Source: a virus. Taken from it: DNA of 60,226 nt. The DNA lies in the IMG/VR virus record IMGVR_UViG_3300045988_163836, one strand, 5' to 3'. The notes beneath the pieces were generated by a model. It was not told where the DNA came from, did no database searches, and saw only the letters and a program-made list of their open reading frames with translations. How positions within the stretch are numbered: position 1 is the first letter of the stretch; every line of letters starts with the position of its first letter. Below, piece after piece: positions 4,345-55,423 of the stretch. Made by a program: the position numbers and the translations under genes.

Positions 4345-4757
4345 GCAAGGTAATGTCTGGTCCAGGCAATCCTTTTGTATTTAATCAAATGGATTATTTA
4401 ATGGGTCGTATTAAAAAAGAAGACACATTACATAAATACCATGTTCTGCTTAAATCAGGTCAAGTTATTCTTGAAGACTATTGGTGTTGGCATGGTCATA
4501 AATGGTATAAAGCATTAATTAAATGCTTTGATGATTTTTATATTGTAATTACTACTGAAGAAGATGTAATTAGTATAGAAAAAATAGAAAATCCAACAGT
4601 AGATTCTATCTATATAGAATATATATTGGCAAGCAGACTGAGAGGAGATGAAGTTGATGGCGACTCTATATATGATGTGCGGCTTGAGTGCAAATGGAAA
4701 GACTACATTCGCGAAATCCTTCGCAAAGATGAATCACATCCGGTATGTAAACCCTGA
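4329..4757 (+). CDS. hypothetical protein
   Basis: The ORF's 3' end, about 110 nt, overlaps the next gene. The true end is uncertain. Confidence 0.4.
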   Translation: MEFDMSKVMSGPGNPFVFNQMDYLMGRIKKEDTLHKYHVLLKSGQVILEDYWCWHGHKWYKALIKCFDDFYIVITTEEDVISIEKIENPTVDSIYIEYILASRLRGDEVDGDSIYDVRLECKWKDYIREILRKDESHPVCKP

Positions 4758-5193
4758 TGAATTGTATGCTGTCTTCAATGGTGATGAATGCAACCGCTGT
4801 CATAAGTTCGAAGTTTGGCAGACATTATATCAGATTGTACATTGTGCAGAGATGGATAAGGCAGATATTATCATTGATACTAATTGTTTGACTCTTGGAC
4901 AGAGAGAAGAAATCAGAAGCCGTTTTCCTCATTTTGATAACTACCAGCTTATGGTTATTATCGCTAGTGTAGAAAATTCAAAGGAATGGAACTCCAAGAG
5001 ACATAGAGTTGTGCCGCAGCAGGAGCTTGAACGGCAGGCACGTATTGTAGATTGGCCTGATTTGACTGATCATTATAATGGTTGGAATAGTATTAGATAT
5101 TATTATAATGATGGCTCTCTGTTTACTAAATATCGTGAAATTTATGATGGCGAAGACCATGATCTGCGACAGAAGAAGGAGGATAATAAGTAA
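4648..5193 (+). CDS. P-loop NTPase or kinase-like protein
   Basis: Walker A motif GLSANGKTTFAK. Confidence 0.55.
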   Translation: MKLMATLYMMCGLSANGKTTFAKSFAKMNHIRYVNPDELYAVFNGDECNRCHKFEVWQTLYQIVHCAEMDKADIIIDTNCLTLGQREEIRSRFPHFDNYQLMVIIASVENSKEWNSKRHRVVPQQELERQARIVDWPDLTDHYNGWNSIRYYYNDGSLFTKYREIYDGEDHDLRQKKEDNK

Positions 5194-8732: not shown

Positions 8733-10397
8733 ATGACAGATTTGAGGACACTCATTCCAGAAGAAGAAAAGAATCTGCTGCATGATTATATTAAAGAGTA
8801 CCTTCATTCTGATAATTACTGCACTGTAGATGAAATTAATCATCTTCTGCGGTTTTGGGCTGCTGAAAAGCCTGACCTGTATGAGTTGCTTGGTAATAAT
8901 TTGATGGTCGAAGACCATATTTCCTATCAGGCATCTGGAGATGATTTGATGGATAAATTCGGTGAAATGTATGAAGAAATTTATAATAATCCTGAATTAG
9001 CAAACGTCAAAAAATTCATTGATTCTTACGAGCAAATTACTAATATTTATTATTCTTGGATGGATACCACTCTTGATAAAGATGAACGTGTTAATTGTTG
9101 TAGCATGATTGACCATTGCCTTGATAGTGAATCTCTCGTAGCCAATAAAAATGTATATATGTTTGATTGGGGTCGCAAATCTGTTGTTATTCGCCGTGGT
9201 CCGCATGCAGATACTTCGAAGCCGCTTGAGTTGAAGAGTGATATGAAGCTGATGCGAATGATGGCTAAAATTGTCGATTGGTTTGAGCTGGATAAAGAAG
9301 CATTTGAGCAGTTTCGTATTCTTCATTCGCGTGTTTTGAATGATCGTATGATTAATGCTGATATTGTACTCTCTATTCATCCGCTTGATTATCTTACTAT
9401 GAGTGATAATGCTTGTGATTGGGAGAGTTGTATGAACTGGTATCAGGGCGGTGATTATCGTCTTGGCACTGTTGAAATGATGAATTCTCCTGTCATCCTT
9501 GAAGCATATGTTGAATCCGAGCATCCTTATTGTCCTATTGACCGTGACAAAAGAACTTGGAGTAATAAGCGTTGGCGGTGTCTTTATATTGTTAATAAGG
9601 ATATTATCACTGAAATTAAGCAGTATCCTTATAACAATATTTATCTGCGTGATTATGTGCTGAATAAAATTAAGCAGTTAGCTGAACAGAATATGGGCTG
9701 GCATTACGACGATAAGATGTATGAGGTTTGGCAGAATCAGAGCAATGATACTGATTTTGGTCAGGTTTATATCCGCATGAGAACTGGAGCTATGTATAAT
9801 GATTATTATGATAATCATTATGCTTATATCAATCCAGAAGTAAAAGAAGTAGAAGTTTACTATTCTGGTGTAGCTGAATGTATGTGCTGCGGTAAAGGCT
9901 ATGAAGCTGATCCGAGTGGAAATGTAGATGCATTTGTAGAATGTGATAAAGTCGTATGTGCAACCTGTGAAGGCAAAGTCCAGTGTGATGATTGTGGCTC
10001 TTGGATTGATAGTGAAGATGCTTGGTTCTGTGAAGGGGACGGTGCAACTTATTGTAGCTGGTGTGCAGATGGCCGCACTCAGACTTGTAGCTGTTGCGGA
10101 GAAACTAAATGGCTTGATTATGATTTCAAGAAGCAGGCTCTTCCCTATATGTTTGAAGTAAAAACTCCTAATGGTAAGCATCGTCGTGATGTTGGAAATC
10201 CCATTGATGTCTGTGATGATTGTTATGAAGATTATGATTTTGGTGATGCACCGAAGGAGCCAGACTTGTGGGGCGATTTTCAGTATATTGATGTTGACAA
10301 GGCAGATAAAAAGGTATGGGAGCCATTTCTGTCCCTTGAAAGAATTGCTGATGCCAAGATGCGGCTAAAGGCGACTTATCCTGATGATTATGTTTAG
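8733..10397 (+). CDS. large paralog-family protein (HPLDYxTMSDNAxxWESCMNW motif, Cys-rich C-terminus)
   Basis: 554 aa. It shares a core with 14749..16392 and 18988..20310: SIHPLDYLTMSDNACDWESCMNWYQGGDYRLGTVEMMNSP. The C-terminal region has many CxxC pairs. Confidence 0.6.
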   Translation: MTDLRTLIPEEEKNLLHDYIKEYLHSDNYCTVDEINHLLRFWAAEKPDLYELLGNNLMVEDHISYQASGDDLMDKFGEMYEEIYNNPELANVKKFIDSYEQITNIYYSWMDTTLDKDERVNCCSMIDHCLDSESLVANKNVYMFDWGRKSVVIRRGPHADTSKPLELKSDMKLMRMMAKIVDWFELDKEAFEQFRILHSRVLNDRMINADIVLSIHPLDYLTMSDNACDWESCMNWYQGGDYRLGTVEMMNSPVILEAYVESEHPYCPIDRDKRTWSNKRWRCLYIVNKDIITEIKQYPYNNIYLRDYVLNKIKQLAEQNMGWHYDDKMYEVWQNQSNDTDFGQVYIRMRTGAMYNDYYDNHYAYINPEVKEVEVYYSGVAECMCCGKGYEADPSGNVDAFVECDKVVCATCEGKVQCDDCGSWIDSEDAWFCEGDGATYCSWCADGRTQTCSCCGETKWLDYDFKKQALPYMFEVKTPNGKHRRDVGNPIDVCDDCYEDYDFGDAPKEPDLWGDFQYIDVDKADKKVWEPFLSLERIADAKMRLKATYPDDYV

Positions 10398-10476
10398 TTT
10401 AAATTCTTGCCAAAATTGAATACTCGAAAATTTATAAAAAATTTGATATAATATATATAGAAAGGATGGGAGAGAT

Positions 10477-11652: not shown

Positions 11653-12459
11653 ATGAATTACCATTTAGATAAATGGGTTATGGATAAAGTAGAAACTCAT
11701 TTAGAAGCAGTTAATGTCAGAGGAGAAAATTGGGTTAGCTTAATGGCTTATGGTAGCCAGAACTATGGTCTTGATACTCAATTGTCTGATGTAGATACCC
11801 GGCTTATTGTTCTTCCTTCATTTGAAGATATTGTATTGAATAAAAAGCCAGTGTCTTATACCAAGATTCTTCCTAATGATGAACACATTGATTTTAAAGA
11901 TATTCGTTTGTTCATTGATTGTTTGAAGAAACAGAATATGGCATATCTTGAATGTATCTTCACACCTTATAAAATGGCATCAAGCGTGTATTGGAATGAG
12001 TGGCAGGCACTGCTTAATGAGCGTGAAGCTATTGCACGTTATAATCCTTACAAGGCAGTTAAGACAATGAAGGGTATTGCTATGGAAAAATATCATGCAA
12101 TGGAGCATAGATATCCTACTAAAACTCATCTGATTGATACATATGGTTATGATAGTAAGCAGCTTATGCATTTGCTTCGTATCGAACAGTATCTTGGACG
12201 TTATATTGATGAGGTTAAGTATGCTGATTGTCTTCAGGCACCAAGGGGTGATTATCTTCTTGCTGTAAAAAATTATCACTATGATCTTGAAACTGCACGA
12301 ATTGTAGCAAATACTGCTATTAATAATATTACAAGAGTAGCTGATGATTATTGTTCTAAGACCAAGGATGAAGGTAATGAAGAACTTGAAGATTTTATGA
12401 ATAAGATTGTTTATCTTATTATGAAAAAAAGAATTGTAAAGGAAATGTTAAATGTCTGA
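11653..12459 (+). CDS. nucleotidyltransferase-fold protein
   Basis: Motif MAYGSQNYGLDTQLSDVDTRLIV (GS...DxD) of the Pol-beta-like nucleotidyltransferase superfamily. ATG 11653 lies 9 nt after aaggag. Confidence 0.55.
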   Translation: MNYHLDKWVMDKVETHLEAVNVRGENWVSLMAYGSQNYGLDTQLSDVDTRLIVLPSFEDIVLNKKPVSYTKILPNDEHIDFKDIRLFIDCLKKQNMAYLECIFTPYKMASSVYWNEWQALLNEREAIARYNPYKAVKTMKGIAMEKYHAMEHRYPTKTHLIDTYGYDSKQLMHLLRIEQYLGRYIDEVKYADCLQAPRGDYLLAVKNYHYDLETARIVANTAINNITRVADDYCSKTKDEGNEELEDFMNKIVYLIMKKRIVKEMLNV

Positions 12460-14748: not shown

Positions 14749-16392
14749 ATGACACCTTATGAAGCATTAACGGCCCAAGATAAGAAATATATTACTGAAT
14801 ATATTGAAAAATGGGGTGGCATTAATTCCCCCGTTAAACTTAAAGCCCCTCTTGATTATATCCTTCGAGAATGGAATAAGAGTAAGCAAACTCTGTTTGA
14901 TATTTTTGGTGAAAAGTTAATGCTGGAGAAGGAAATCCAGGTTGAAGATGGAGATAATAAAAAAATAAGAGAAGTTAGTGAATATCTCTATAGTTTTAAT
15001 CCTGGTATTAATTTTATTAAGAATCTTCGTAAGTTATTTGAGCTTAATAATATTTATTTTGACGATAGTTATGCAACAAAACATGCAATATATAATTTAA
15101 TTCAAGCTTATCAACTTTTTACTAATAGAGTTGCTAAAGGATTTATTTATCATAATAAAGATGGTAAGGCAGTTAAAGTTCCAGAAGGAGCCAAGGTAAT
15201 GAAAGTTCTTCAAAAAATGGCTAAAGAATTTGATTTACCTGATTTTGAAATTTTCCGCAATCATATTTCACGTATTACCGAAGTACGCAAATCTAAAATC
15301 AAATTTACTCTATCTATTCATCCTTTGGATTATATGACTATGAGCGATAATGCAAATGGATGGGAAAGTTGTATGAACTGGACTCAAGGACCAGGAAGTT
15401 ATCGTGCTGGTACTATTGAGATGATGAATAGTCCATTAGTTGTTATAGCATATATTACTACTAAACCTTATTATCCAGCAAACACTTCTATTGAATGGAC
15501 TTCTAAAAGCTGGAGAGAATTAATTATTGTCCATCCGAATGCTATTTGTTCTGTAAAATCTTATCCTTATTATAATATTGCATTTGATAAAGCTCTTGTA
15601 AATTGGCTTGTTGATTTGGTTGAAGAAAAAACTGAATGGCGTTATAACAGAAAAAAGCCACAAGAGAGTTTGGAAAGTTGCTCTTATATTGGAGCTTGGC
15701 AAGATAAAGAAGATAAGAATAATCATTTTCTGTTGGATTTTGCAACAAATGAAATGTATAATGATTTTGGTAATACAGAGAATTATGGAATTTTTTCAAT
15801 TAATTCACCAAACAATAAATATCGTACATTTACAATTAATTATTCTGGTTTAATGACTTGTATGTGCTGCGGCGAGGATGCTTATTGGTCTGATGATACT
15901 GAAATGGTGGTTTGTGAAGACTGTGATCCACCCACTTATTGTTATTGCTGTGGCGAACGAGTTAATGCAAATGATGCAATTGAAGTAGATGGTGAATTGG
16001 TTTGCGAAGATTGTTATCATGATTTGCATAGATGCTTATGCTGTGAGGATGCTCATTTTGATGAAGATTTCACTACTGTATTTGTTGGACATATTGAAAA
16101 TCAAACTATTAATATTGATTATGATGAACATTATATTTGTAGTGAATGTCTTGCTAATAAAGAATATTTAAAGTATCTTGGAGATACTGATATTAGAGCT
16201 GAAACAATTCGATTGGATGGCGGTCCTTATTATGGTATGGTGGCTCTTTTAATTGAAGAAGATGATTTAAATGTAGAGGCTAAAAAGATAATTTCTAATG
16301 ATCCTTATTCTACTATAATTACTGATTATACTTATGCTATTCGTCGTTATCCTGAGCGTTTTTATAGTTACAATAGGTCAATCGCGATTTAA
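14749..16392 (+). CDS. large paralog-family protein (HPLDY...SCMNW motif, Cys-rich C-terminus)
   Basis: 547 aa. Motif SIHPLDYMTMSDNANGWESCMNWTQGPGSYRAGTIEMMNSP plus C-terminal CxxC clusters. Confidence 0.6.
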   Translation: MTPYEALTAQDKKYITEYIEKWGGINSPVKLKAPLDYILREWNKSKQTLFDIFGEKLMLEKEIQVEDGDNKKIREVSEYLYSFNPGINFIKNLRKLFELNNIYFDDSYATKHAIYNLIQAYQLFTNRVAKGFIYHNKDGKAVKVPEGAKVMKVLQKMAKEFDLPDFEIFRNHISRITEVRKSKIKFTLSIHPLDYMTMSDNANGWESCMNWTQGPGSYRAGTIEMMNSPLVVIAYITTKPYYPANTSIEWTSKSWRELIIVHPNAICSVKSYPYYNIAFDKALVNWLVDLVEEKTEWRYNRKKPQESLESCSYIGAWQDKEDKNNHFLLDFATNEMYNDFGNTENYGIFSINSPNNKYRTFTINYSGLMTCMCCGEDAYWSDDTEMVVCEDCDPPTYCYCCGERVNANDAIEVDGELVCEDCYHDLHRCLCCEDAHFDEDFTTVFVGHIENQTINIDYDEHYICSECLANKEYLKYLGDTDIRAETIRLDGGPYYGMVALLIEEDDLNVEAKKIISNDPYSTIITDYTYAIRRYPERFYSYNRSIAI

Positions 16393-17908: not shown

Positions 17909-18907
17909 ATGGGTAAAAAAGTTTTAGTTCCTGAGTTTACTGAAAATTGTAGAGGGCTTTTGGAAGGACTATTCAAGATTAGCGAAGTAGGTCTTTTGAA
18001 AGCTCTTGGTGATTTTGTATCTAATAAATATTCTAATGTAGAGATTACAGAAGATTATGTATATGCTGAAGGCAATATTCCTGTTATGCTTATCGCACAT
18101 GTAGATACTGTATTTAGACAGCCAATTCGTCAATTTACTTATAATGAGAAAAGAGCTGTTTATAAAGGCAAGGAAGGTCTTGGAGCAGATGATAGAGCAG
18201 GTGTTTTTGCGATTATTCAGATTTTACGCAAAAAGTATAGACCTTATGTTCTTTTTACAACAGATGAAGAAATGGGTGGCTATGGGGCACATATATTTGT
18301 TGAAGAACATCCAGTAGCTCCAAATATTAAGTACATGATTGAGCTTGATAGAGCTGGTGAAAGAGATTGTGTCTTCTATGAGTGTGAAAATTTTACGTTC
18401 ATGGATTATGTTGAAAGTTTCGGCTTTAAGCAAGCAATTGGATCATTTACAGATATTAGTATTATTATGCCTGAATGGGAAATTGCCGGAGTAAATTTAT
18501 CAGTTGGCTATCATCATGAACATACTCAAAATGAAGATTTGCATATTAGAACATTGTATAATACAATTAATAAAGTATGTAAAATGCTTGATGATATCGA
18601 AAATGCAGATAAATATAAATTTATTCCTAGCAAGGAATATCTTCAGTGGATTACATTAACTAATAAATATCATATGCCTTATGATTTTGATGATGATAAA
18701 CTTCTTAATTGTAGTTTTTGTAATCAGTTATATTATGAGTGGGAAGATTTTCCTCTTGATATTGATGGAGTAAAGGTCCATGTATGTCCTGAATGTTTAG
18801 CACTTGATCCTAATATTCATCAATGTGAAAGATGTTATAATTTATTTTATTCAAATAATATGAAAGAAAGAGTATGTAATAAATGTCGAGTCCCTATTGT
18901 AATTTAA
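17909..18907 (+). CDS. M20/M28/M42-family zinc peptidase-like protein with a C-terminal zinc ribbon
   Basis: Motifs IAHVDTVF, GLGADDRAGV, TTDEEMGG and HHEH. The C-terminus has CxxC...CxxC pairs. Confidence 0.5.
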   Translation: MGKKVLVPEFTENCRGLLEGLFKISEVGLLKALGDFVSNKYSNVEITEDYVYAEGNIPVMLIAHVDTVFRQPIRQFTYNEKRAVYKGKEGLGADDRAGVFAIIQILRKKYRPYVLFTTDEEMGGYGAHIFVEEHPVAPNIKYMIELDRAGERDCVFYECENFTFMDYVESFGFKQAIGSFTDISIIMPEWEIAGVNLSVGYHHEHTQNEDLHIRTLYNTINKVCKMLDDIENADKYKFIPSKEYLQWITLTNKYHMPYDFDDDKLLNCSFCNQLYYEWEDFPLDIDGVKVHVCPECLALDPNIHQCERCYNLFYSNNMKERVCNKCRVPIVI

Positions 18908-18987
18908 ATGAAATTAAAGAACAAGTAAAGAAGGTTATTGCCTATTCATAGGGGCTGGATATTAACCTTTTAAATATTGATAAATTA

Positions 18988-20310
18988 ATGAATGATTGGG
19001 AAGAGAATAAATGCAAATTTTATAGCAGGCTTCCTGGTAATAAATTAATTTATCAAAGCCATGCACCTATTACAATGTCTATTTCAGAAGATGATAAAAA
19101 AGCTGAATTAGATTGTTTTATTGACAACATTCGTTGGCGTTATGGCTTATTTGAATTAAGAGATTTTGTTGAAAATAATAGAAAAGATTTTTATAATAAT
19201 ATTTTAAGCGAAGATTATCCAATGAATAATGGAACTATCATTCCAAAAGGAATGAAAATAATTAAAGCATTTAAATATTTTGTAGAAGATAAGGAAATTC
19301 TTACTGAAATACAAGATAAAGCCAGTATGCTCATTCAGAATACAAAAATTAGTGGATATTTTTGTATGTCAGTTCATCCATTGGATTATCTTAGTTTAAG
19401 TGAAAATACGCATAACTGGCGGTCATGCCATGCACTTGATGGAGAATATCGGGCTGGTAATTTATCTTATATGGCAGATAATTGTACAATTATATGTTAT
19501 ATTAAGAGTGAACATGACGCAGTTTTACCTAGATTTCCAGATGATGTGCCATGGGTGGATAAGAAGTGGCGTATGCTTCTTCATGTGTCTGATGATGATA
19601 CTATGGTTATTTCAGGTCGGCATTATCCTTATGAAAGTAAAGGATTACAAGATTTTGCTCTTGAACTGTATGAAACATTTTTCGGGCAAGGATACCGTTT
19701 TACTGATTGGTGTCATGAAAAATATAATACATTTACAATAAATGATAAAATTTTTTCTAATGAAGTTCGTTTATTGCCTACGGGATACGTAATGACCCCA
19801 GATATTAAGGTTATTGTTGACCCAAAAAATCCTTTGCATTACAATGACCCTCTTCATTCTACTGTATATGACTATTGGTTTAGTATTGCTTATAGTGAAC
19901 CTTATTGGCATGAAGAAGGTATTCCACAAGATAAGTTAATTCTTCCAAGAACTCGTACCACTACTAAAGTTAATATAGGACATGATGTAAAATGCTGTAT
20001 TTGTGGTAAAAATGATTGTGTTTTAACAGATACAATGCTTTGTATTGATTGCGAACTTAAATATGGTACAGAAGAAACAGAAGATTTTACTTTCTGTAGA
20101 GAGTGCGGTAGACGTATTTATATTCCTGAAGCAATATCATTAGATGATGATGATGGTTATGTATGCCGTAGTTGCGGAGACAATTATTAGATATGTGATA
20201 ATTGTAATATGTATTATGATAAAAAAGATTTAATTTATGATGAAGAAAACAATGCTTACTATTGTGAAGCTTGTTATGATGAAATTTTATTTGATAGGGA
20301 GAATGAATAA
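18988..20310 (+). CDS. large paralog-family protein (HPLDY...SC motif, Cys-rich C-terminus)
   Basis: Motif SVHPLDYLSLSENTHNWRSCHALDGEYRAGNLSYMADN. A TAG at 20188 is read as Gln and extends the ORF to TAA 20308, which overlaps the next ATG. Confidence 0.55.
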
Positions 20311-22956: not shown

Positions 22957-23002
22957 TTTAAAAATATTTATCGAAAATACATATAACTGTAAGATATATT
23001 AT

Positions 23003-23644
23003 ATGTATCTTATACAAGATAATATTTTATTTTGTATAAGTAATTATAAGAATATAAATTTTCAAAAATATAATATGGATATTTAGATTTTATCTGTTTA
23101 TGAATATTTATGTCAAAAATATATTTTACATAAGGATATATTAAAACAATATAAAGGTATAGAATTATATAAAATTATGGAAATTCAAGATAAAATTTTT
23201 ATTAATAGATATAAATTATTATTGTAGATTATTAATAATAATTATAATTTTGATAATTAGTTAATATATACTGATTTTAATAATTTTAATTTTGAACAAA
23301 ATATTAGTTATATAAATTATTGTTTAAAATTGCTATTTAATAATTTTAAAAAAATAGATAAACAATTTTGGAAAATTTTAGATTAGATTTATTTTTTAAT
23401 TAATGGTAAAACTAATTTATTTTTATTGTTGGGAAATTTTTATTTGAATAAAAGTAATTTATAGCAATTTACTGAAGAAATAAAAAAAATTCCTGGAATT
23501 AAAGAATAGCTCTCTTTTAGTTATACAGCTTTAAATTTAGCTATTGAAATTGATAAAGTTGCAGAAAATAAAAATTATCTTAATGAATTAATTGAAATTA
23601 TTGATAATCATTCACAAGAAAAAATTTATAAATTTGATATTTAA
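23003..23644 (+). CDS. hypothetical protein, very AT-rich, with 6 in-frame TAG codons
   Basis: A continuous frame runs from ATG 23003, or from ATG 23075, to TAA 23642 when TAG is read as Gln. A standard-code ORF caller breaks it into short pieces. The start is uncertain. Confidence 0.4.
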
Positions 23645-24078
23645 TAAAAATTAATATATAATATATATACAAAATAAAGAAAATAAAGACTTTAACAGCA
23701 AAAAATGGACAGTAAATCCGTCGCAAATGCTACGCAGGTTCGAATCCTGCCCTCCCCACCATTATATGGCGGAGGTAGGGAAGCGGTTAAACCCAGCGGA
23801 ACCAAATCAAATAAGTCTTGTTTGAATAAAATAATTATTTGATTTTTAATAAAAAATATTATATAATATTTATATAAAAAGAGAAAGGCTTTTACAGCAA
23901 CTTAAACTTTTTTCCGTGGTCGAATAACTGGATAATTCATCAGAGTTAATTCTGAAAATAAGGATTCGAATTCCTTCCTTGGAGCCAAGTATAAAAAGTC
24001 TTGGGTAAATTTCTTAATTTGAAAAAATTAAAAAAATATAATATAATATATAAGTAATCAATAAGAAATTAAATAAAT

Positions 24079-24226
24079 GGGGTCGTGGCCAAGCGGTAAG
24101 GCCGGCAACTTATCCAAGATTAGTTTAAATGGTAAAATAGTCTATGCGCAAGAAAGATGTGAGTTCAAACCTAACATTTTGGGCCAAATTGCCAAATCGT
24201 TGGTTCGAATCCAACCGGCCCCACCA
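24079..24226 (+). tRNA. tRNA with a 73-nt insertion in the anticodon loop
   Basis: Acceptor GGGGTCG/CGGCCCC with A73 and CCA. D-arm GCCAAGCGGTAAGGC. Anticodon stem GGCAA (24104-08) pairs with TTGCC (24189-93). T-arm GTTGG-TTCGAAT-CCAAC. The loop is split as 5' CTTAT... and ...GCCAAA 3'. The insertion ends pair as CCAAGA/TTTTGG. The mature anticodon is ambiguous (UCA, CCA or other). Confidence 0.6.
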
Positions 24227-24252
24227 TATTCCAATAGAAAGGAATCAAAATA

Positions 24253-24492
24253 ATGAAGTTGACAAATATTAAGTAGGTTGAAGATTTTATCGCAGCAGTT
24301 AATCGGGCACATAGTAATGTATGGCTGGTTAGTCCGCAGGGTGATAGATATAATATGAAATCTGCACTTTCACAGTATATTGCACTTGGTGCATTGCTCG
24401 GCCAGCATGGTGATGAATTGGAACTTTTCTGTGATAGTAAGCAGGATGAAGGCTTGTTTATTGAATTTTTTGTTCGTCATCCTGAAGTTTAA
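24253..24492 (+). CDS. hypothetical small protein
   Basis: ATG 24253, one in-frame TAG, TAA stop. Lies between tRNAs. Confidence 0.4.
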
Positions 24493-24561
24493 TTGAAAAA
24501 TTAAAAAAAATATTATAAAATATATATACAAAATAAATGAGAAATAAATTCTCATTTGTAT

Positions 24562-24638
24562 GGGACAGTAGCTTACGAGGTCGGAGCATTGGTCTGAAAA
24601 ACCAAAGGATGGAGGTTCGATACCTCTCTGTCCCACCA
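24562..24638 (+). tRNA. tRNA-Phe (GAA)
   Basis: Acceptor GGGACAG/CTGTCCC. Anticodon arm TTGGT-CTGAAAA-ACCAA. T-arm GGAGG-TTCGATA-CCTCT. A73 and CCA are encoded. Confidence 0.75.
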
Positions 24639-24891
24639 ATTGGTCTTATACATGGGGTTTCCGATTTGAACTAGGTAGATTAGTCACCTACCGTTGGCAA
24701 TAGACCAATTAAAAATAAACTGAGGCAAAGGGAAATCGGGTTTTAATATATATAGCTATAAAGAAATTTTATAGTTAGCTATGATGAACTTCATAGTAAA
24801 ATCCTCTTGTAATCAAGCTAATTGGGAGAGGGGTAGCGCGGGAACGGGGAGAAGCGCGCTATAAAAGGTGAAATACTTCTTTCCACCATAT

Positions 24892-24967
24892 GCCGGTGTA
24901 GCCGAATGGCATAGGCGAATGATTTAGGATCATTAATCTGAAGGTTCGAGTCCTTTCACCGGTACCA
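24892..24967 (+). tRNA. tRNA with anticodon UAG (formally reads CUA, Leu) but a short, class-I variable loop
   Basis: Acceptor GCCGGTG/CACCGGT. D-arm GCC-GAATGGCATA-GGC. Anticodon arm AATGA-TTTAGGA-TCATT. Variable loop AATCT. T-arm GAAGG-TTCGAGT-CCTTT. A73 and CCA. Confidence 0.6.
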
Positions 24968-25051
24968 ATAGTGAAGTAGTAGCTATACTCACTATAATCA
25001 AGGCTCGGTGGTTGGTGGCTCCATCGTTATGTAAATAAGCCATATGTATAT

Positions 25052-25122
25052 TACTTCTTGGTGTAATGGAAGCATGCTGCCTGAAAGAGGCGGAGGTATT
25101 GGTTCAATTCCAATAGAAGGAT
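25052..25122 (+). tRNA. tRNA-like gene with a non-canonical anticodon loop (UGAAAGA)
   Basis: T-arm ATTGG-TTCAATT-CCAAT. Acceptor TACTTCT/AGAAGGA with one mismatch. Anticodon stem CTGCC/GGCGG. The loop has G at position 33. Possibly a degenerate Phe-type tRNA. Confidence 0.3.
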
Positions 25123-25575
25123 TAATTAAAGCTGGGAAATAATAGTCGCCCATAACTAATTATTTAATATAGGACTATTATTAAAGGTTATTTAAGTTAA
25201 AGAAATGCGGTTGAAGTTATTACTTACTTGATTATAAAATAACATGACCGCAAGACGAGTTTATAGTGTGCGTCTATAAATGATCTGCCTATATGTTATC
25301 TTTTTATACTTTCTCTTTGGTTGTTTCTTGACATATAAGTAAAAACGGAAAGGGAGTTAAAGGTTCAGCTAAAAAACTGGTTTGTTTTTTGATAAGGTTT
25401 TAAAAATTAGGTGACAAAATCTTATTTGAGTGACGCTGCTCAGGAGGGTCCGGAACCTCTGAAATGCGATATGCGGTTGTAGCTCAGTCGAAAAAAATAA
25501 ATTTGGACGAAGTGAGCTAATTAATTACTTTTATTTCCTAAATATAATAGAATAAAATAGAAAGAAGGTAATTAA

Positions 25576-26139
25576 TTGCCAAAAGCCTTAGATTTAACGA
25601 ATAAAGTATTTGGAAATTTAAAATGTATTTAGAAAGCTCCTACTAGAAATAAAAAGACTTATTGGGAATGTGAATGTTTATTATGCGGAACTCATAAAAT
25701 TATTTAGACTTGTCATTTAACAGATGGTAGAACTACAAGTTGCGGGTAGCATAATGAAAATAATCTTTTTAATATTAGCAAAGAAAAGCAATGCTTAATT
25801 TGTGGAGAAAAGTTTATAACTAATAATCCTAAAAGAAAATATTGTTTTAATTGTTCTCCAGACAATATATCAGCAGCTGACCGATTAAGACATATCAAAA
25901 GAATTATTAAACATAAATTAATAGTATATAAAGGCGGAAAATGTGAAATTTGTGGTTATGATAAATGTGAAGGAGCTTTATAGTTTCATCATTTAAATCC
26001 GCAAGAAAAAGAATTTACAATTTCTCAAGTAAATTTAAATGAAGGTGAATTTTCTTTTGAAAATTTATTAAAAGAAGTTGATAAATGTTAGTTATTATGT
26101 GCTAATTGTCATGCTGAACAACATTATAAAATTGAATGA
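25576..26139 (+). CDS. HNH homing endonuclease
   Basis: TTG start right after an in-frame TAA. The N-terminal module LTNKVFGNLKCIQ...WECECLLCG...TSCGQ matches the repeats of the 7750 gene. HNH motif CEICGYDKCEGALQFHHLNP...N...LLCANCHAEQH. There are 5 in-frame TAGs, each codon checked against the 60-nt line boundaries. TGA 26137 overlaps the tRNA-Lys 5' end. Confidence 0.7.
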
Positions 26140-26212: not shown

Positions 26213-26780
26213 GGTCAAGTTTGAGAAATTTCATAAAGCATCGCTGACGTTAAATGGCACTTATATGAAAACGCGTAAGTAATATAAGATAGCAAAATTC
26301 TCGTAGTTCATCCTATTAGAGAATCTTAAAGAGTAATGGCAAGATCATATTGCGGGAGACCGTGCGTATGAGATACCAATAAAGGTAGCACATCTTGTGT
26401 TGAACAAGATAAAAGATGGAAAGGATACCTGCCATGTTTGGACAGCAAAAGAAGGCGTTGAATGTAATCGAAAAACATTCCGTTGGTTCTTAGGGGAGCG
26501 ACGTAACAGTGAAACCCGAGGTTTGAGTTACCTTGTCCAAACGCTATGTATAGTCAAAGTCTAGGCAACAAGGCTTTAATTAGAGTTAAAATTGTTTTAA
26601 TTAAACTCATACTTGTGGAAATCAAGCAGATCCACTTTACTGGGCCTACTGTAAAAGCCAGTTTGATATAGCCTCCATACCCAATGAGGAATTTTTATAA
26701 AAGTCTATTTAATTTTTCTTGGCAGTTTAATTAAGTAGACTATATGCGGGATTAGCTCAGCTGGTTAGAGCGTTTGGTTT

Positions 26781-27260
26781 ACTCGGCAAACTCTTTTAAT
26801 TTCTATTTTATGACACGAAATTCTAAAGAAGTCGGTAATTTAGCAGAATTACAATGTATTACTGGTCTTTATGAACTGGGATGTGATATTTCATTTCCTT
26901 TTGGAAATAGTCAAAAGTATGATTTAATTATGGATTATAAAGGTAAACTTTATAAAGTTCAAGTTAAACATGCTAAAGATGAATATACATTAGGAGAAAT
27001 TACACATTTTTCTTTTGCTACGAGATGGCAAAGTCATAATACGACTGGTTATAAAAAAACTCCATACACAAAAAATGATATTGATTTTTTCGCTACTTAT
27101 CACCAAGGAAAAGTTTATTTAATTCCTGTTGAAGAATGTAGCGGAGCTACTAAATCTATTCGTTATACCCCCCCTAAAAATGGACAACGAATTGGTATTA
27201 ATTTTGCTCAAGATTATTTGGCGGAGGAGGTGTTGAAGAAATTGTAAGAGCATTGCTAAG
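26781..27260 (+). other. intervening sequence in a tRNA anticodon loop (not group I), carrying a PD-(D/E)XK ORF
   Basis: About 480 nt, almost all of it ORF 26810..27247. This is too short for a group I core. Its termini form a helix stacked on the anticodon stem. Confidence 0.5.
26810..27247 (+). CDS. PD-(D/E)XK-fold nuclease-like protein encoded in a tRNA insertion (paralog 1 of 3)
   Basis: MTRNSKEVGNLAELQCITGLYELGCDISFPFGNSQKYDLIMDYKGKLYKVQVKHA has the motif D-x(n)-(D/E)-x-K. It aligns along its full length with the ORFs at 56076..56519 and 57052..57477. Confidence 0.6.
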   Translation: MTRNSKEVGNLAELQCITGLYELGCDISFPFGNSQKYDLIMDYKGKLYKVQVKHAKDEYTLGEITHFSFATRWQSHNTTGYKKTPYTKNDIDFFATYHQGKVYLIPVEECSGATKSIRYTPPKNGQRIGINFAQDYLAEEVLKKL

Positions 27261-27307
27261 TAATCCAAGAGGTCATTGGTTCGAATCCAATATCCTGCAC
27301 CAATAAA

Positions 27308-27995: not shown

Positions 27996-28628
27996 ATGCC
28001 TAAAAAATTAACTCAAGAAGAATTTGAGCAAAGAGTTTATGAATGCGTTGGAGATAAATATTCTGTTATAAGCGAATATAATGGAAAATCTAAACCAATA
28101 GATTTAAAGTGTAATATTCATAACATTATATTTCAAGTATCGGCAGAGTGTTTTATGCGAGGTCCAAAAGAAATAAGATGTTCTTGTCCTAAATGTTCAG
28201 AAGAAAAGAAAAATGAAAAATTTTCTATAAATAGAACAGAATTAGAATGTGCTTATTGCGGAAGAAAATTTATTCGTTCAAATTCTAAATTAAATAATTC
28301 AAAAAGTGGAATATATTTTTGTTGTAGAGAACATAAAGATTTGGCTCAAAGAATAGATTTCGGATTAAAAGAAATTCAGCCAAATCATTATGGAAATGCT
28401 GTTGAAAATATTCATAACTATCGTAAAAATGCTTTTCGATATTATTCTCATAAATGTGCAGTCTGTGATTGGAATGAAGATGAAGATATCTTAGAAGTTC
28501 ATCATATTGATGAAAATCGAGATCATAATGAACTATCTAATTTAATTATTCTTTGTCCTATATGTCATAGAAAACTTAGTTCACATAAATATAAATTGAT
28601 TGATAGAGAACAAATTGTTCTTTGTTAA
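27996..28628 (+). CDS. HNH homing endonuclease
   Basis: Motif EVHHIDENRDHNELSNLIILCPICH. N-terminal Cys/His clusters. No in-frame TAG. Free-standing between tRNAs. Confidence 0.7.
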   Translation: MPKKLTQEEFEQRVYECVGDKYSVISEYNGKSKPIDLKCNIHNIIFQVSAECFMRGPKEIRCSCPKCSEEKKNEKFSINRTELECAYCGRKFIRSNSKLNNSKSGIYFCCREHKDLAQRIDFGLKEIQPNHYGNAVENIHNYRKNAFRYYSHKCAVCDWNEDEDILEVHHIDENRDHNELSNLIILCPICHRKLSSHKYKLIDREQIVLC

Positions 28629-28882: not shown

Positions 28883-28956
28883 GGGGACATAGTTTATGGT
28901 AGGAAAACGTTGAATTTAATTCAAAGTCGAGGGTGCGATTCCCTCTGGCTCCACCA
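28883..28956 (+). tRNA. tRNA-like gene with an atypical anticodon arm (TTGAA-TTTAA-TTCAA). A 7-nt loop reading gives anticodon UUA, which would read UAA
   Basis: Acceptor GGGGACA/TGGCTCC with one A.G mismatch. D-arm GTTT-ATGGTAGGA-AAAC. T-arm GAGGG-TGCGATT-CCCTC. A73 and CCA. The anticodon hairpin has either a 5-bp stem with a 5-nt loop, or a 4-bp stem with loop ATTTAAT. Confidence 0.35.
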
Positions 28957-29162: not shown

Positions 29163-29289
29163 GAGATACATTAATCAAGCCTCCACGGGGCGTATCTTGG
29201 GTAATGCTAATTGATTAAAAAATTTTTGGTCGCGGAAAATTAATTTTGCAACCAAAATTTCCATAATATTATGGAGGAGATAATAATTA

Positions 29290-29939
29290 TGGCTTATATT
29301 TATTAGATAACAAATAATATTAATGGAAAAATTTATGTTGGTAAAACATTAAAAAATAATATTTAGGAACGTTGGAAAGAACATTTAAGAGATTATAAAA
29401 AATCTAAATATGAAAAACGTCCTTTATATAACGCAATAAATAAATATGGTCCAGAAAATTTTTCTATTAAGGAATTAGAAGAATGTTCTGCTGAAGAAGC
29501 TAGCGAAAAAGAAATTTATTGGATTGAGAAATTAAACTCTTTTAAATATGGATATAATGCTACTAAAGGAGGAGATGGCAAGATAAAATATGACCATCAA
29601 AAAATTTTAGAAGCATTAAGAATAAATCCACGTCCAATTGAAATAGCTAAATTATTTAATTGTAGTTGTGATTTAGTTCAATAGATAGCTAAAGAACACC
29701 AAATTTAGATAATTAATCAAAGTAATGAATAGATGAAAAAAGAAAAATCCAAAAGTATTAGGCAATATAATAAAAATGGAATATTAATTAATACTTTTGA
29801 TTCTGTAGCAGAAGCTGGACAATGGTGTTTTGAAAATAAAAAATGTCTAAATTATAATTCTGGAGTTAGAAGTCATATTGCTGAATGTGCAAATGGAAAA
29901 CGTAAAACAGCATATGGTTATATCTGGAAATATATATGA
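29290..29939 (+). pseudogene. GIY-YIG homing endonuclease, frameshifted (1-nt shorter T-run near 29467-29470)
   Basis: MAYIYQITNNINGKIYVGKT...ERWKEH is the GIY-YIG motif. The paralog at 54788 reads ...GAAAATTTTTCTATT... with 5 T. This copy has 4 T. That splits the protein between the 29290 frame and the frame of ORF 29733..29939, which carries the C-terminal domain. Confidence 0.6.
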
Positions 29940-54787: not shown

Positions 54788-55423
54788 ATGGCATACATTT
54801 ATTAGATAATAAATAATATTAATGGAAAAATTTATGTTGGTAAAACAGTAAAAAATAATATTTAGGAACGTTGGAAAGAACATCTTAAAGATTATAAAAA
54901 ACCTAGATGTGAAAAACGTCCTTTATATGACGCAATGAATAAATATGGTTCAGAAAATTTTTCTATTAAAGAGTTAGAGGAATGTCCATTAGAAGAACTT
55001 AATGATAAAGAAGTTTATTGGATTGAAAAATTAGGTTCTTTTAAATATGGATATAACGCTACAATTGGCGGAGATGGCAAACAATATATTGACTATGATT
55101 TAGTATGCGAAACATATAAGAATTTACAATGTATTGTAGATACTGCTAAACAATTAAATATTAGTGAAGATTCAGTTTCTAAAATTTTAAAATTATATAA
55201 AATTGATATTATTCCTAATGCTAAAATAGTTCAAAATAAGTATGGGAAAATAATTAATATGTATGATTTAAATGATAATTATTTAAGGACTTTTCCATCA
55301 ACAACTGAAGCAGCTAAATTTATGGTAGAAAATAAATTAACTAATTGTAAAATGACTACTATAAAACAACATATTTCTGAAGTATGCAAATGTAAACGAA
55401 ATACAGCTGCTAAGTTTAAATGA
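54788..55423 (+). CDS. GIY-YIG homing endonuclease (intact copy)
   Basis: MAYIYQIINNINGKIYVGKTVKNNIQERWKEH...YGYNATIGGDG. There are 3 in-frame TAGs. It is 75-80% identical to the frameshifted copy at 29290. Confidence 0.7.

What the first reader, a model, noticed from the sequence alone, without database searches (positions are those of the whole stretch)
24079..24226. ORF-less 73-nt insertion of the same architecture in a Gln-family tRNA paralog, with an ambiguous mature anticodon
This tRNA shares its promoter and leader (atataatatataagtaatcaataagaaatt) and its D-arm (GCCAAGCGGTAAGGC) with tRNA-Gln(UUG) at 56919. It has A73 instead of G73. A 73-nt insertion sits in the anticodon loop, and its ends pair (CCAAGA/TTTTGG). 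Splicing at the same position as in the ORF-containing cases (after nucleotide 34) would give loop CUUCAAA. That is anticodon UCA, a UGA reader. Other junctions give CCA. This may be a mini-intron derived from the ORF-carrying ones, or a regulated suppressor or Trp-like tRNA.
Basis: partly seen in the sequence, partly recalled or inferred. Interest (0 to 1): 0.7.

Follow-up and report, generated by a model that had tools for sequence, protein, structure and literature searches.

The report
tRNA-shaped intron inside phage tRNA-Ile
The 73-base insertion is real and is itself shaped like a small tRNA ending in CCA; it sits in the anticodon loop of a phage isoleucine tRNA (mature anticodon UAU, not a stop-codon or Trp reader) and belongs to a barely described class of phage tRNA introns whose removal mechanism is unknown.

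Summary
Window 24079-24226 is a tRNA gene with its own promoter and exactly 73 extra bases in the anticodon loop. The anticodon reading does not hold.

The insert (24114-24186) is a tRNA-like cloverleaf: a 7-bp acceptor-like stem, U8, a D-arm with GG, a T-arm (GTTCAAAC), a discriminator and CCA. It scores 31.8 bits on the Rfam tRNA model.

Removing exactly this unit leaves the loop CUUAUAA, which is tRNA-Ile(UAU). Intron-less relatives with the same anticodon arm all carry TAT.

At least nine host tRNA species in related 100-230-kb, TAG-recoded gut phages carry introns built the same way. Some are mini (58-123 nt) and some hold HNH ORFs.

Where intron-less alleles exist (Gln, Lys, Ile), the insertion runs from the first base of the acceptor-like stem to the A of CCA.

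The window's own ORF-bearing tRNA introns are of other types: a PDDEXK_5 class and a group-I-like Leu(UAA) intron.

The same genome encodes an ATP-dependent RNA ligase, a kinase, a phosphoesterase and an RlaP nucleotidyltransferase.

The most likely mechanism is inferred, not shown: tRNA end-processing nucleases cut at the intron's tRNA-like ends, and the phage ligase seals the exons.

The closest precedent is the "enigmatic" tRNA introns of Lak megaphages (2019).

The parts
24019..24047 (+). Sigma-70-like promoter, TTGAAA-17-TATAAT.
   Evidence: It matches 11 of 12 consensus positions. This is a consensus match only.
24042..24071 (+). The -10 element and 30-nt leader, repeated exactly upstream of tRNA-Gln at 56872-56901.
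   Evidence: There are 2 exact copies in the window against 0 expected. The same leader precedes the orthologous gene in L014, L019 and L094.
24079..24113 (+). 5' exon of the host tRNA: acceptor GGGGTCG, a 3-bp D-stem arm, anticodon stem GGCAA, and loop bases C32 U33 U34 A35 U36.
   Evidence: ARAGORN and Rfam find the tRNA. The junction is fixed by comparison with intron-less tRNA-Ile(UAU) genes.
24114..24186 (+). The 73-nt tRNA-shaped intron, running from the first base of its acceptor-like stem to the A of its CCA.
   Evidence: Taken alone it scores 31.8 bits on the Rfam tRNA model, against a gathering score of 29. ARAGORN at a lowered threshold draws a cloverleaf over exactly 24114-24186. 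Nine variants keep the helices.
24114..24120 (+). Intron acceptor-like stem, 5' strand CCAAGAT. It pairs with 24176-24182 (ATTTTGG).
   Evidence: All 7 positions pair. Three of the pairs covary in relatives. Across 13 introns of the class, 11 of 12 acceptor and T-stem pairs show compensatory change.
24123..24138 (+). Intron D-like arm: GTTT / AAATGGTA / AAAT, with GG in the loop.
   Evidence: This comes from the Rfam tRNA alignment and the ARAGORN drawing. The only changes seen are one in the loop and one U-A to U.G.
24141..24153 (+). Degenerate anticodon-like arm: a 3-bp stem (UCU/AGA) with loop AUGCGCA, which has C at position 37.
   Evidence: It is shown in the ARAGORN drawing. It is too weak for a decoding tRNA, and other members of the class (58 and 66 nt) lack this arm.
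24159..24175 (+). Intron T-arm: GTGAG / TTCAAAC / CTAAC, with a G53-C61-type closing pair and one G.A mismatch.
   Evidence: The T-loop TTCAAAY and its closing G-C are kept in all 13 class-A introns aligned.
24183..24186 (+). Discriminator G plus CCA. The 3' splice site lies immediately after A24186.
   Evidence: A CCA tail is found in nearly all members. The exceptions are CAA in both L096 introns and CCG in L133. The boundary is fixed.
24187..24226 (+). 3' exon: A37 A38, anticodon stem TTGCC, variable loop, T-arm, acceptor strand, A73 and the encoded CCA.
   Evidence: The spliced sequence is called tRNA-Ile(tat), 75 nt, by ARAGORN at its default threshold.
4648..5193 (+). Candidate trans-acting factor (inferred): a P-loop, polynucleotide-kinase-like protein.
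   Evidence: It matches Pfam AAA_33 at 2.3e-12 and the PHROG 'polynucleotide kinase' family at 7.6e-8.
11653..12459 (+). Candidate trans-acting factor (inferred): an RlaP-family nucleotidyltransferase. The family name stands for RNA ligase-associating Pol-beta.
   Evidence: It matches Pfam PF10127 at 5.8e-6 and 26.6 bits, above the cut-off of 23. The family is described in PMC12776372.
12657..13436 (+). Candidate trans-acting factor (inferred): a metallophosphoesterase, possibly for 3'-end healing.
   Evidence: It matches Pfam Metallophos at 1.1e-11 and PHROG metallo-phosphoesterase at 2.4e-23.

Best explanation
Shown:
- The locus is a phage tRNA gene whose anticodon loop is interrupted, between U36 and A37, by an intron that is itself a miniature tRNA. 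The intron has a 7-bp acceptor-like stem, U8, a D-arm, a T-arm, a discriminator and CCA.
- Precise removal of that unit gives a 75-nt tRNA with loop CUUAUAA, so it decodes AUA (Ile).
- The element belongs to a family of such introns in TAG-recoded gut phages. The family includes mini forms and forms carrying HNH ORFs.
- The splice sites always coincide with the 5' end and the CCA 3' end of the tRNA-like unit, whatever the host tRNA and whichever loop position (34/35, 35/36 or 36/37) is interrupted.

Inferred mechanism:
- Because both splice sites are defined only by the intron's tRNA shape, the cuts are probably made by enzymes that measure tRNA ends.
- RNase P would cut 5' of the intron's nucleotide +1, leaving a 3'-OH on the 5' exon.
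- An RNase Z/BN-like endonuclease would cut 4 nt past the acceptor helix, after CCA, leaving a 5'-phosphate on the 3' exon.
- The two exon halves stay held together by the host tRNA's own stems. The phage's ATP-dependent RNA ligase then seals the nick in the anticodon loop.
- That ligase is encoded 4.8-6.2 kb upstream of the window in the same genome. The neighbouring kinase, phosphoesterase and RlaP genes could serve as back-up end healing.

My confidence that this is a tRNA-shaped intron giving tRNA-Ile(UAU) is about 0.9. My confidence in the RNase P / 3' endonuclease / ligase route is about 0.4. The single confidence figure given for this explanation (0.5) is a composite of the two.
For: Anatomy.

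Anticodon:
- A search for the anticodon arm with any triplet, CCGGCRACTNNNAATYGCCARAT, found 5 intron-less genes in IMG/VR. All 5 carry TAT.
- Aligning the interrupted L002 gene to three intron-less Ile(UAU) genes gives one best split, GGCGACTTAT|CCAAGAT...GGGCCA|AATCGCC.

The splice-site rule, established without assuming it:
- L061 tRNA-Gln has exons 100% identical to the window's tRNA-Gln. The only exact solution is intron CGTAGAT...ACGGCCA.
- L007 tRNA-Lys compared with the window's tRNA-Lys (1 mismatch) gives a unique solution, GATTTAG...AATCACCA.

The family:
- 20 or more loci carry the Ile intron, in 9 to 10 sequence variants.
- Further class members sit in Lys, Gln, Glu, Asp, Tyr, Pro and Leu tRNAs.
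- The Gln intron alone scores 38.6 bits on the Rfam tRNA model.
- Across 13 introns the acceptor and T-stems are 96.8% paired, 11 of 12 pairs have changes on both sides, and 0 of 500 shuffles reach this.

Need for the tRNA: ATA makes up 28 per 1000 codons in late genes, and no other AUA reader is seen in the window.

Ligation capacity:
- The window is 100% identical to a 188-kb contig.
- That contig carries a 456-aa protein matching PF09414 RNA_ligase at 31.5 bits (cut-off 27). It has an N-terminal PHA02142 OB domain and the motif KVHG.
- The kinase, RlaP and phosphoesterase genes lie in the window.

From my own knowledge: RNase P and RNase Z recognise the acceptor/T-arm minihelix and leave 3'-OH and 5'-phosphate ends. 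Rnl-type ligases join those ends directly, and T4 Rnl1 seals nicks in anticodon loops.
Against: - There are no RNA data, so splicing itself is inferred from conservation.
- Minimum-free-energy folding does not give the cloverleaf for the window's AU-rich insert (z = -0.2). One covarying pair (G5/C29) also fits a competing hairpin.
- No known bacterial pathway joins RNase P and RNase Z products.
- In Bacillus, CCA is reported to inhibit RNase Z (own knowledge). The enzyme for the 3' cut is therefore unidentified.
- In several members the base before the 5' splice site could pair with the discriminator (U-A or U.G). That can shift RNase P cleavage.
- The Lak megaphage introns carry a 26-31-nt hairpin module between the 5' splice site and their tRNA-like part. 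RNase P alone cannot explain that 5' splice site.
- RNA-repair genes are common in large phages for other reasons, such as countering anticodon nucleases.
- Part of the covariation test is circular, because I selected introns by pairing, CCA and loop length.
Confidence: 0.5

Rival explanations
1. The intron is the same, but a dedicated splicing endonuclease cuts it. The enzyme would be phage-encoded or a host tRNA-binding nuclease. [quoted passage not shown] The phage phosphoesterase and kinase would heal the ends and the phage ligase would seal them, following the T4 Pnk/Rnl1 logic.
For: - The kinase, metallophosphoesterase, RlaP and RNA ligase genes are all present in the same genome. Healing enzymes are needed only if the ends are cyclic phosphate and 5'-OH.
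- Both introns of phage L096 have the tail CAA instead of CCA, although all of that phage's tRNAs end in CCA. This hints at a phage-specific partner.
- The Lak-type introns have a 5' module that RNase P would not remove.
- Three paralogous 475-572-aa proteins of unknown function lie among the repair genes.
Against: - No candidate endonuclease was identified.
- The mini-introns encode nothing.
- The intron ORFs are HNH-type DNA endonucleases.
- The splice sites match the natural tRNA end-processing sites so exactly that a new enzyme is not required.
Confidence: 0.25
2. The intron removes itself, or uses RNase P RNA for a transesterification. This would make it a new, very small self-splicing element, or a degenerate group I intron.
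For: - Mobile introns carrying homing-endonuclease ORFs in phages are normally self-splicing (own knowledge; PMC3984707, listed).
- Members of the class carry HNH ORFs.
- In the Ile, Lys and Gln hosts the 5' exon ends in U.
Against: - At 58-73 nt the introns are far below any known self-splicing core.
- No Rfam ribozyme or group I match was found, even at E-values up to 10.
- The intron ends in A, not G.
- The base before the 5' splice site is C or G in the Glu, Asp, Tyr and Pro hosts.
- The only conserved features are the tRNA-like ones.
Confidence: 0.08
3. The insertion is not removed. Either the host tRNA gene is inactivated by a small mobile element, or the real product is the inner tRNA-like RNA (for example a decoy or a tRNA-Arg(GCG)-like molecule) released by normal tRNA processing, with the host halves discarded.
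For: - The inner unit has everything needed to be released by tRNA processing.
- ARAGORN labels it tRNA-Arg(gcg) at a lowered threshold.
- No RNA evidence for ligation exists.
Against: - The exons stay intact cloverleaves in 20 or more phages and in two different tRNA bodies.
- Exons of interrupted Gln and Lys genes are identical, or differ by 1 nt, from uninterrupted functional alleles.
- In every one of about a dozen independent intron families the remainder is exactly a 7-nt loop with the anticodon expected from the gene's position in the array.
- The interrupted gene is the only AUA reader seen, while ATA is frequent.
- The inner anticodon arm is degenerate or absent, so it is not a decoding tRNA.
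Confidence: 0.07
4. One reading: a Gln-family paralog that matures to anticodon UCA (a UGA reader) or CCA (Trp-like), possibly as a regulated suppressor.
For: - ARAGORN's default intron placement gives CCA.
- The promoter, D-arm and T-arm resemble tRNA-Gln.
- The genome does use a suppressor tRNA, for TAG.
Against: - TGA is a normal stop. It ends 13 of 55 ORFs, and recoding it gives no gain in ORF length.
- A separate tRNA-Trp(CCA) lies at 30502.
- The anticodon arm matches only TAT genes.
- The UCA or CCA junctions would cut inside the intron's helix and tail. That contradicts the rule established at the Gln and Lys loci.
Confidence: 0.03

Closest known systems
The 'enigmatic' introns in tRNA genes of Lak megaphages (Devoto et al. 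2019, Nat Microbiol, PMC6784885)
   Same: - They are introns in the anticodon loops of tRNA genes of large, TAG-recoded gut phages.
- The authors noted that one intron 'itself may encode a tRNA', and that the true excision point differs by one base from the tRNAscan call.
- From their Table S6 I find a 7-bp acceptor-like stem next to a T-arm (GGTTCGAATCC type) at the 3' end of all four introns listed.
   Different: - Lak introns begin with a 26-31-nt hairpin module (UACAAG..CUUGU + A-rich linker) before the tRNA-like part.
- They end with a 2-4-nt tail that is not CCA.
- Here the whole intron is the tRNA-like unit, and its tail is N-CCA.
- The phage lineage differs: 140-230 kb, with the nearest cultured relative a Faecalibacterium phage at 33% protein identity. 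The host tRNAs also differ.
- The paper proposed no mechanism, splice-site rule or ORF-bearing forms.
Group I introns in bacterial, plastid and phage tRNA anticodon loops (for example tRNA-Leu(UAA) at 34/35)
   Same: - They sit in the anticodon loop.
- They can carry homing-endonuclease ORFs and behave as mobile elements.
- The window itself has a likely example in tRNA-Leu(UAA) at 59262-60085. It is inserted at U34|A35, starts after U and ends in G.
   Different: - The 73-nt element has no room for a P3-P9 core.
- It ends in A.
- It has no Rfam match.
- Its conserved features are those of a tRNA.
Archaeal and eukaryal tRNA introns cut at a bulge-helix-bulge motif by the EndA/Sen endonuclease and joined by RtcB or Trl1
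   Same: They are short, ORF-less, presumably protein-dependent introns in the anticodon loop. The exon halves are held together by the tRNA body and then ligated.
   Different: - There is no bulge-helix-bulge here. The two sites flank a 5 x 6-nt internal loop at the base of the intron helix, as read directly from the sequence.
- The position is 36/37 and varies from 34/35 to 36/37 within the class.
- The setting is bacterial and phage.
- The ligase present is ATP-dependent and Rnl-like, not RtcB.
tRNA-like processing signals embedded in other RNAs: MALAT1/mascRNA and mitochondrial 'tRNA punctuation' (own knowledge)
   Same: A tRNA-shaped module inside a longer transcript tells RNase P and RNase Z where to cut. 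This is the logic I propose for both splice sites here.
   Different: In those systems the flanking RNAs are released and never rejoined. Here the flanks are the two halves of a tRNA and must be ligated.
Phage T4 Pnk/Rnl1 repair of anticodon-loop breaks, and Rnl2/Rnl5 nick-sealing RNA ligases (own knowledge; NgrRnl abstract PMC4408790)
   Same: A phage-encoded ATP-dependent ligase, with a kinase and a phosphatase, seals a break in a tRNA anticodon loop whose halves stay base-paired. The same gene set is present here.
   Different: In T4 the break is inflicted by a host defence nuclease. Here it would be programmed by an intron. No biochemical link has been shown.

Membership tests
tRNA (Rfam RF00005): host gene | A cloverleaf scoring above the family's gathering score. 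| tested here: met
   It scores 46.6 bits against 29, with the insert treated as a loop insertion. The spliced form is called tRNA-Ile(tat) by ARAGORN at its default threshold.
tRNA (Rfam RF00005): the insert on its own | A cloverleaf scoring above the gathering score. | tested here: met
   Window 24114-24183 scores 31.8 bits against 29. The related Gln intron scores 38.6 bits.
Functional decoding tRNA: the insert on its own | A 5-bp anticodon stem, a 7-nt loop with U33 and a purine at position 37. | tested here: not met
   Only 3 bp pair and position 37 is C. Other members (58 and 66 nt) lack the arm altogether.
tRNA-Ile(UAU): host gene | An anticodon arm and loop identical to uninterrupted tRNA-Ile(UAU) genes after excision. 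| tested here: met
   All 5 intron-less genes found with a free anticodon triplet carry TAT. The best split is unique. The window's stem differs by one compensated pair (GGCAA/TTGCC instead of GGCGA/TCGCC).
tRNA-Ile(UAU): host gene | Charged with isoleucine by IleRS. | not testable with these tools
   A73 is present. However, the window-type body has a Gln/Lys-like 3-bp D-stem, so its charging is open.
UGA (opal) suppressor tRNA | The genome reads TGA as sense. | tested here: not met
   TGA recoding does not lengthen ORFs, whereas TAG recoding does. TGA terminates 13 of 55 ORFs.
Group I intron | A conserved catalytic core (P3-P9), usually more than 200 nt. | tested here: not met
   The element is 73 nt. 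No Rfam Intron_gpI match appears even at E-values up to 10.
Group I intron | The 5' exon ends in U and the intron ends in G. | tested here: not met
   The intron ends in A (of CCA). In other members the 5' exon ends in C or G.
Bulge-helix-bulge (archaeal/eukaryal) tRNA intron | Two 3-nt bulges separated by a 4-bp helix, each holding one splice site. | tested here: not met
   By direct reading of 24105-24195, the 5' site abuts the intron helix. The 3' site lies 4 nt past it, in a 5 x 6-nt internal loop. No 4-bp helix lies between the two sites.
Lak-type phage tRNA intron (Devoto 2019) | An anticodon-loop intron in a large recoded gut phage, containing an acceptor-plus-T-arm tRNA-like unit at its 3' end. 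| tested here: met
   Searches show this for the window. Searches show it for the published Lak sequences.
Lak-type phage tRNA intron (Devoto 2019) | A 5' hairpin module between the 5' splice site and the tRNA-like unit, and a short tail that is not CCA. | tested here: not met
   The window's intron starts with the acceptor-like stem and ends in GCCA. Compare the Lak sequences.
tRNA-shaped ('class A') phage tRNA introns, as defined here | Intron = 7-bp acceptor-like stem + U8 + ... + T-arm + 3' strand + N + CCA, and its removal leaves a 7-nt loop. | tested here: met
   One search shows this for the window. Searches show it independently at the Gln, Lys and Ile loci.
RNase P / RNase Z substrate | Actually cleaved by these enzymes at 24113|24114 and 24186|24187. 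| not testable with these tools
   Only the structural prerequisites were shown: a 12-bp acceptor/T minihelix, a T-loop and an RCCA end.

The most novel reading that the evidence does not exclude
These tRNA-shaped introns define a third route of tRNA splicing, one that operates in bacteria. The intron mimics a tRNA, so the cell's own tRNA end-processing enzymes (RNase P and a 3' endonuclease) excise it hydrolytically. A phage ATP-dependent RNA ligase then rejoins the exon halves. Because ligation depends on a phage early gene, the intron would also act as a timer. It would withhold the AUA-decoding tRNA until the phage is established. ATA codons are 2.4-fold enriched in the late, TAG-recoded genes. 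This timing would parallel the stop-codon recoding switch.
Probability: 0.3. Interest if true: 0.9.

Novelty: new variant of a known kind. Interest (0 to 1): 0.75.

Why it matters
Apart from self-splicing group I introns, bacteria and their viruses are not known to have tRNA introns, and the Lak examples have stayed unexplained since 2019. This locus and its relatives give that enigma a clear, testable rule: the splice sites are the 5' end and the CCA end of a tRNA mimic. In the same genome there is also a plausible enzyme set, including an RNA ligase.

If the rule reflects the mechanism, it would be a new splicing pathway assembled from universal tRNA-processing enzymes. It would also suggest how mobile introns can be harmless without being ribozymes.

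There is a practical consequence as well. Gene finders mis-assign these tRNAs: ARAGORN calls this one Trp, and calls others 'Stop', SeC, Thr or Met. That distorts inferences about codon reassignment in recoded phages. Here it could have produced a false UGA-suppressor call.

Tried and rejected
- Megablast of 23000-26000 against 50,697 phage records gave no match. A capsid-like protein finds only Faecalibacterium phage FP_Brigit, at 33% identity. No annotated close relative was therefore available.
- Thermodynamic folding of the pre-tRNA and of the insert does not return the nested cloverleaf and is not better than shuffles. I relied on the covariance model and on comparative data instead.
- Rfam searches at permissive E-values over the locus, and over the 738-nt Leu intron, gave no ribozyme or group I hit.
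- Many hits from the pattern scans were chance matches inside ORFs and were discarded after reading them: 20 of 24, 6 of 11, and 45 of 56.
- I considered whether the window's ORF-bearing introns share the architecture. They fail the test, having no T-arm or CCA.
- I looked for an RNA ligase inside the window with Pfam, PHROGs and NCBIfam and found none. It lies just upstream of the window.
- The three Cys-rich paralogs gave no hit in Pfam, PHROGs, NCBIfam or PDB sequences. I did not pursue them.
- Eight literature searches found no paper using terms such as 'tRNA-like intron' or 'nested tRNA'. The Lak paper surfaced only.
Full report
**1. The observation**

Window 24079-24226 (+) is a tRNA gene with an oversized anticodon loop. 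ARAGORN in intron mode reports a 75-nt tRNA with a 73-nt intron. The Rfam tRNA model scores the locus 46.6 bits against a gathering score of 29, and places all the extra bases between the anticodon-stem strands GGCAA and TTGCC. The discriminator is A and CCA is encoded.

A promoter-like TTGAAA-17-TATAAT lies at 24019-24047. The 30-nt stretch from the -10 element through the leader is repeated exactly at 56872-56901, in front of tRNA-Gln, against 0 expected by chance. The D-arm and T-arm also resemble tRNA-Gln, although the same D-arm type is used by the window's tRNA-Lys.

From this sequence alone the junction is ambiguous. Keeping 2, 3, 4 or 5 loop bases from the 5' side gives anticodons CCA, UCA, UAA or UAU.

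**2. What the insert is**

The 73 bases at 24114-24186 fold as a tRNA of their own:
- an acceptor-like stem CCAAGAT/ATTTTGG;
- U8-A9;
- a D-arm with GG in the loop;
- a weak 3-bp anticodon-like arm;
- a T-arm GTGAG-TTCAAAC-CTAAC;
- discriminator G and CCA.

ARAGORN at a lowered threshold draws this cloverleaf over exactly those coordinates. Scanned alone, the insert passes the Rfam tRNA gathering score at 31.8 bits.

Minimum-free-energy folding does not recover this structure (z = -0.2). The case therefore rests on the covariance model and on comparison with relatives.

Removing exactly this unit leaves C32-U33-U34-A35-U36-A37-A38. ARAGORN then calls the 75-nt product tRNA-Ile(tat) at its default threshold.

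**3. Relatives fix the anticodon**

An 18-mer from the insert, plus further patterns, retrieved the same intron in more than 20 contigs. These came from IMG/VR, from metagenomes and from one MAG contig labelled Clostridium, and they comprise 9 to 10 sequence variants.

The variants change the acceptor-like stem only in compensated ways. Pair 2:71 goes from C-G to U-A. Pair 7:66 goes from U-A to C-G. Pair 5:68 is G.U, G-C or A-U.

In most contigs the intron sits in a different tRNA body (GCTCTCG...). That body's D-arm and anticodon arm match uninterrupted tRNA-Ile(UAU) genes. A search for this anticodon arm with the triplet left free returned five intron-less genes, and all five carry TAT. Aligning the interrupted gene to them gives one best split, GGCGACTTAT|CCAAGAT...GGGCCA|AATCGCC.

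The window-type body (GGGGTCG...) recurs in five metagenome contigs with the same junction.

The genome reads TAG as sense in its late genes, but it uses TGA as a stop in 13 of 55 ORFs. It has a separate tRNA-Trp(CCA). It uses ATA at 28 per 1000 codons in late genes. UAU fits this picture, and UCA and CCA do not.

**4. A general rule, established independently**

The tRNA arrays of these phages hold other interrupted genes. I used positional orthologues, and in two cases uninterrupted alleles with the same exons.
- L061 tRNA-Gln has exons 100% identical to the window's tRNA-Gln. The only exact solution is a 66-nt intron CGTAGAT...ATTTACG-G-CCA. That intron scores 38.6 bits as a tRNA.
- L007 tRNA-Lys differs from the window's tRNA-Lys by 1 mismatch. 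It has a unique solution: a 735-nt intron GATTTAG...TTAAATC-A-CCA that carries an HNH ORF with in-frame TAG codons.

Further members of 58-876 nt sit in Lys, Glu, Asp, Tyr, Pro and Leu tRNAs.

In every case the intron starts at the first base of a 7-bp acceptor-like stem and ends 4 nt after that stem. The 4-nt tail is N-CCA, with three exceptions: CAA in both introns of L096, and CCG in L133. The remainder is always a 7-nt loop bearing the anticodon expected from the gene's place in the array. The interrupted loop position varies (34/35, 35/36, 36/37), and so do the exon bases next to the splice sites.

Across 13 such introns the acceptor and T-stems are 96.8% paired. Eleven of the 12 pairs show changes on both sides, and 0 of 500 shuffles reach this. 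This test is partly circular, because I selected the introns by pairing, tail and length. The Gln, Lys and Ile comparisons are not circular.

**5.

The Ile intron shares its 5' (..TTAGTTTAA..) and 3' (AAGATGTAAGTTCAAATCT..) ends with ORF-bearing members in Glu tRNAs of other phages. 'Mini version of ORF-carrying introns' is therefore fair.

The ORF-bearing tRNA introns inside this window are of other kinds, however.
- Two introns of about 480 nt encode PDDEXK_5 endonucleases, in tRNA-Val(UAC) at 26746-27302 and tRNA-Pro(UGG) at 56014-56569. They have no T-arm or CCA.
- A 738-nt intron with an HNH ORF sits in tRNA-Leu(UAA) at 59262-60085. It lies at the classic U34|A35 site, starts after U and ends in G, which is group-I-like, although Rfam does not detect it.

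**6. Mechanism (inferred)**

Both splice sites are specified only by the intron's tRNA shape. They coincide with the sites where tRNA 5' and 3' ends are made.

The simplest model has three steps. RNase P cuts at 24113|24114. An RNase Z/BN-type endonuclease cuts after CCA at 24186|24187. The exon halves, still paired through the host tRNA's stems, are then sealed by an ATP-dependent RNA ligase. From established knowledge, hydrolytic processing by these enzymes leaves the 3'-OH and 5'-phosphate ends that such ligases need.

The window is 100% identical to a 188-kb human-gut contig. That contig encodes a 456-aa protein 4.8-6.2 kb upstream of the window. The protein passes the Pfam RNA_ligase threshold (31.5 bits against 27). 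It has the N-terminal OB domain seen in Naegleria-type nick-sealing ligases, and the motif KVHG. A PNK-like kinase, an RlaP nucleotidyltransferase and a metallophosphoesterase lie within the window.

Several points weigh against the model:
- there are no RNA data;
- the 3' nuclease is unknown;
- the base before the 5' splice site could pair with the discriminator in some members;
- the Lak variant has a 5' module that RNase P would not remove.

The healing enzymes and the phage-specific CAA tails fit a rival model equally well. [quoted passage not shown] Self-splicing and 'not spliced' are less likely, for the reasons given under the rival explanations.

**7. Comparison with what is known**

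The element is not a group I intron, judged by its size, its 3' base and the absence of a model match. It is not a bulge-helix-bulge intron, judged by direct reading of the junctions.

The closest precedent is the Lak megaphage report (PMC6784885). That paper recorded 'enigmatic' tRNA introns, one of which 'itself may encode a tRNA'. From the paper's Table S6, all four Lak introns listed end in an acceptor-plus-T-arm unit. They differ in carrying a 5' hairpin module and in lacking a CCA tail.

I found no paper that states the splice-site rule, describes the ORF-bearing forms or proposes a mechanism. The library searched is incomplete. I therefore rate the element as a new variant of a known but uncharacterised kind.

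**8. Verdict**

The element is a tRNA-shaped intron in a phage tRNA-Ile(UAU) gene. Interest is high because the class points to an undescribed way of splicing tRNAs in bacteria. The hypothesis is sharp enough to test with one transcript and three enzymes.

Noticed in passing
window 23913-23987 (+): A further tRNA-like gene lies just upstream of the promoter. It scores 38.4 bits on the Rfam tRNA model but has a 6-nt anticodon loop (GUUAAU), and it ends in GCCA. Default ARAGORN and the whole-window Rfam scan both missed it. A near-identical copy sits at the same place in L019, L014, L054, L066, L072 and L073.
   Followed up: partly
window 28883-28956 (+): A tRNA scoring 48.5 bits on Rfam and missed by default ARAGORN has anticodon UUA, which would read the TAA stop. 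Yet TAA ends 42 of 55 ORFs.
   Followed up: partly
window 26746-27302 and 56014-56569 (+): tRNA-Val(UAC) and tRNA-Pro(UGG) are each interrupted by an intron of about 480 nt that is almost entirely a PDDEXK_5 endonuclease ORF (Pfam 1.3e-25). Only about 40 nt of each intron is non-coding, with paired ends and no T-arm or CCA. ARAGORN mislabels the Val gene as 'tRNA-Stop(tta)'. How these introns are removed is unclear.
   Followed up: partly
window 59262-60085 (+), with 60099-60211: tRNA-Leu(UAA) carries a 738-nt intron at U34|A35. It has an HNH ORF (59479-59925) and group-I-like ends, but no Rfam group I match. A RAGATH-33 RNA (139 bits) follows 14 nt after the tRNA. ARAGORN calls the tRNA 'Stop(tta)'.
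   Followed up: partly
window 57604-58197 (+): A full-length ROOL RNA (323 bits) lies between tRNA-Gln and the amber-suppressor tRNA(CUA) at 59088-59162.
   Followed up: no
window about 20 kb to 54 kb: TAG is read as sense, with about 120 in-frame TAG codons, mostly in late genes. Recoding TAG nearly doubles the total length of long ORFs, whereas recoding TGA does not.
   Followed up: yes
window 8733-10451, 14749-16392, 18883-20310 (+): Three paralogous Cys-rich proteins of 475-572 aa share the motif HPLDY..SDN..W.SC...G.YR.G. They are interleaved with the RNA-repair-type genes. They have no hit in Pfam, PHROGs, NCBIfam or PDB sequences.
   Followed up: partly
L143 3074-4444 (4.8-6.2 kb upstream of window position 1, same genome): A 456-aa ATP-dependent RNA ligase candidate. 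It matches PF09414 at 31.5 bits, has a PHA02142 OB domain and carries the motif KVHG. The window is 100% identical to this 188,115-bp ENA contig.
   Followed up: yes
Ile-intron variants (window 24118 and 24142; L014, L019, L054): The G-to-A change at intron position 5 co-occurs with a C-to-U change at position 29. This also fits the minimum-free-energy hairpin (positions 4-9 with 25-30) that competes with the acceptor-like stem. It could be an alternative conformation or a coincidence.
   Followed up: partly
L096 2989-3126 and 9601-9743; L133 1194-1336: Both tRNA-shaped introns of phage L096 end in CAA instead of CCA, and the L133 intron ends in CCG. All host tRNAs in those loci still end in CCA.
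   Followed up: partly
window-type versus L002-type host tRNA (window 24079-24226; L042, L061, L067, L070, L091 versus L002, L014, L019 and others): Two unrelated tRNA bodies carry the same anticodon arm and intron at the same array positions. The intron is more conserved than the exons. This suggests exon replacement or co-conversion during intron homing.
   Followed up: partly
window 27996-28628, 29271-29939, 54788-55423, 57097-57477 (+): Free-standing homing-endonuclease genes (one HNH, two GIY-YIG, one PDDEXK_5) lie between the tRNA genes.
   Followed up: no
L147 17887-20447 and L148 18833-20371 (related contigs, about 8-10 kb past the window end): There are genes with DUF2828/DUF7788 domains and, in L147 only, a gene with MVP_shoulder/Vault_3 domains. 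They lie a few kilobases from the ROOL RNA locus.
   Followed up: no
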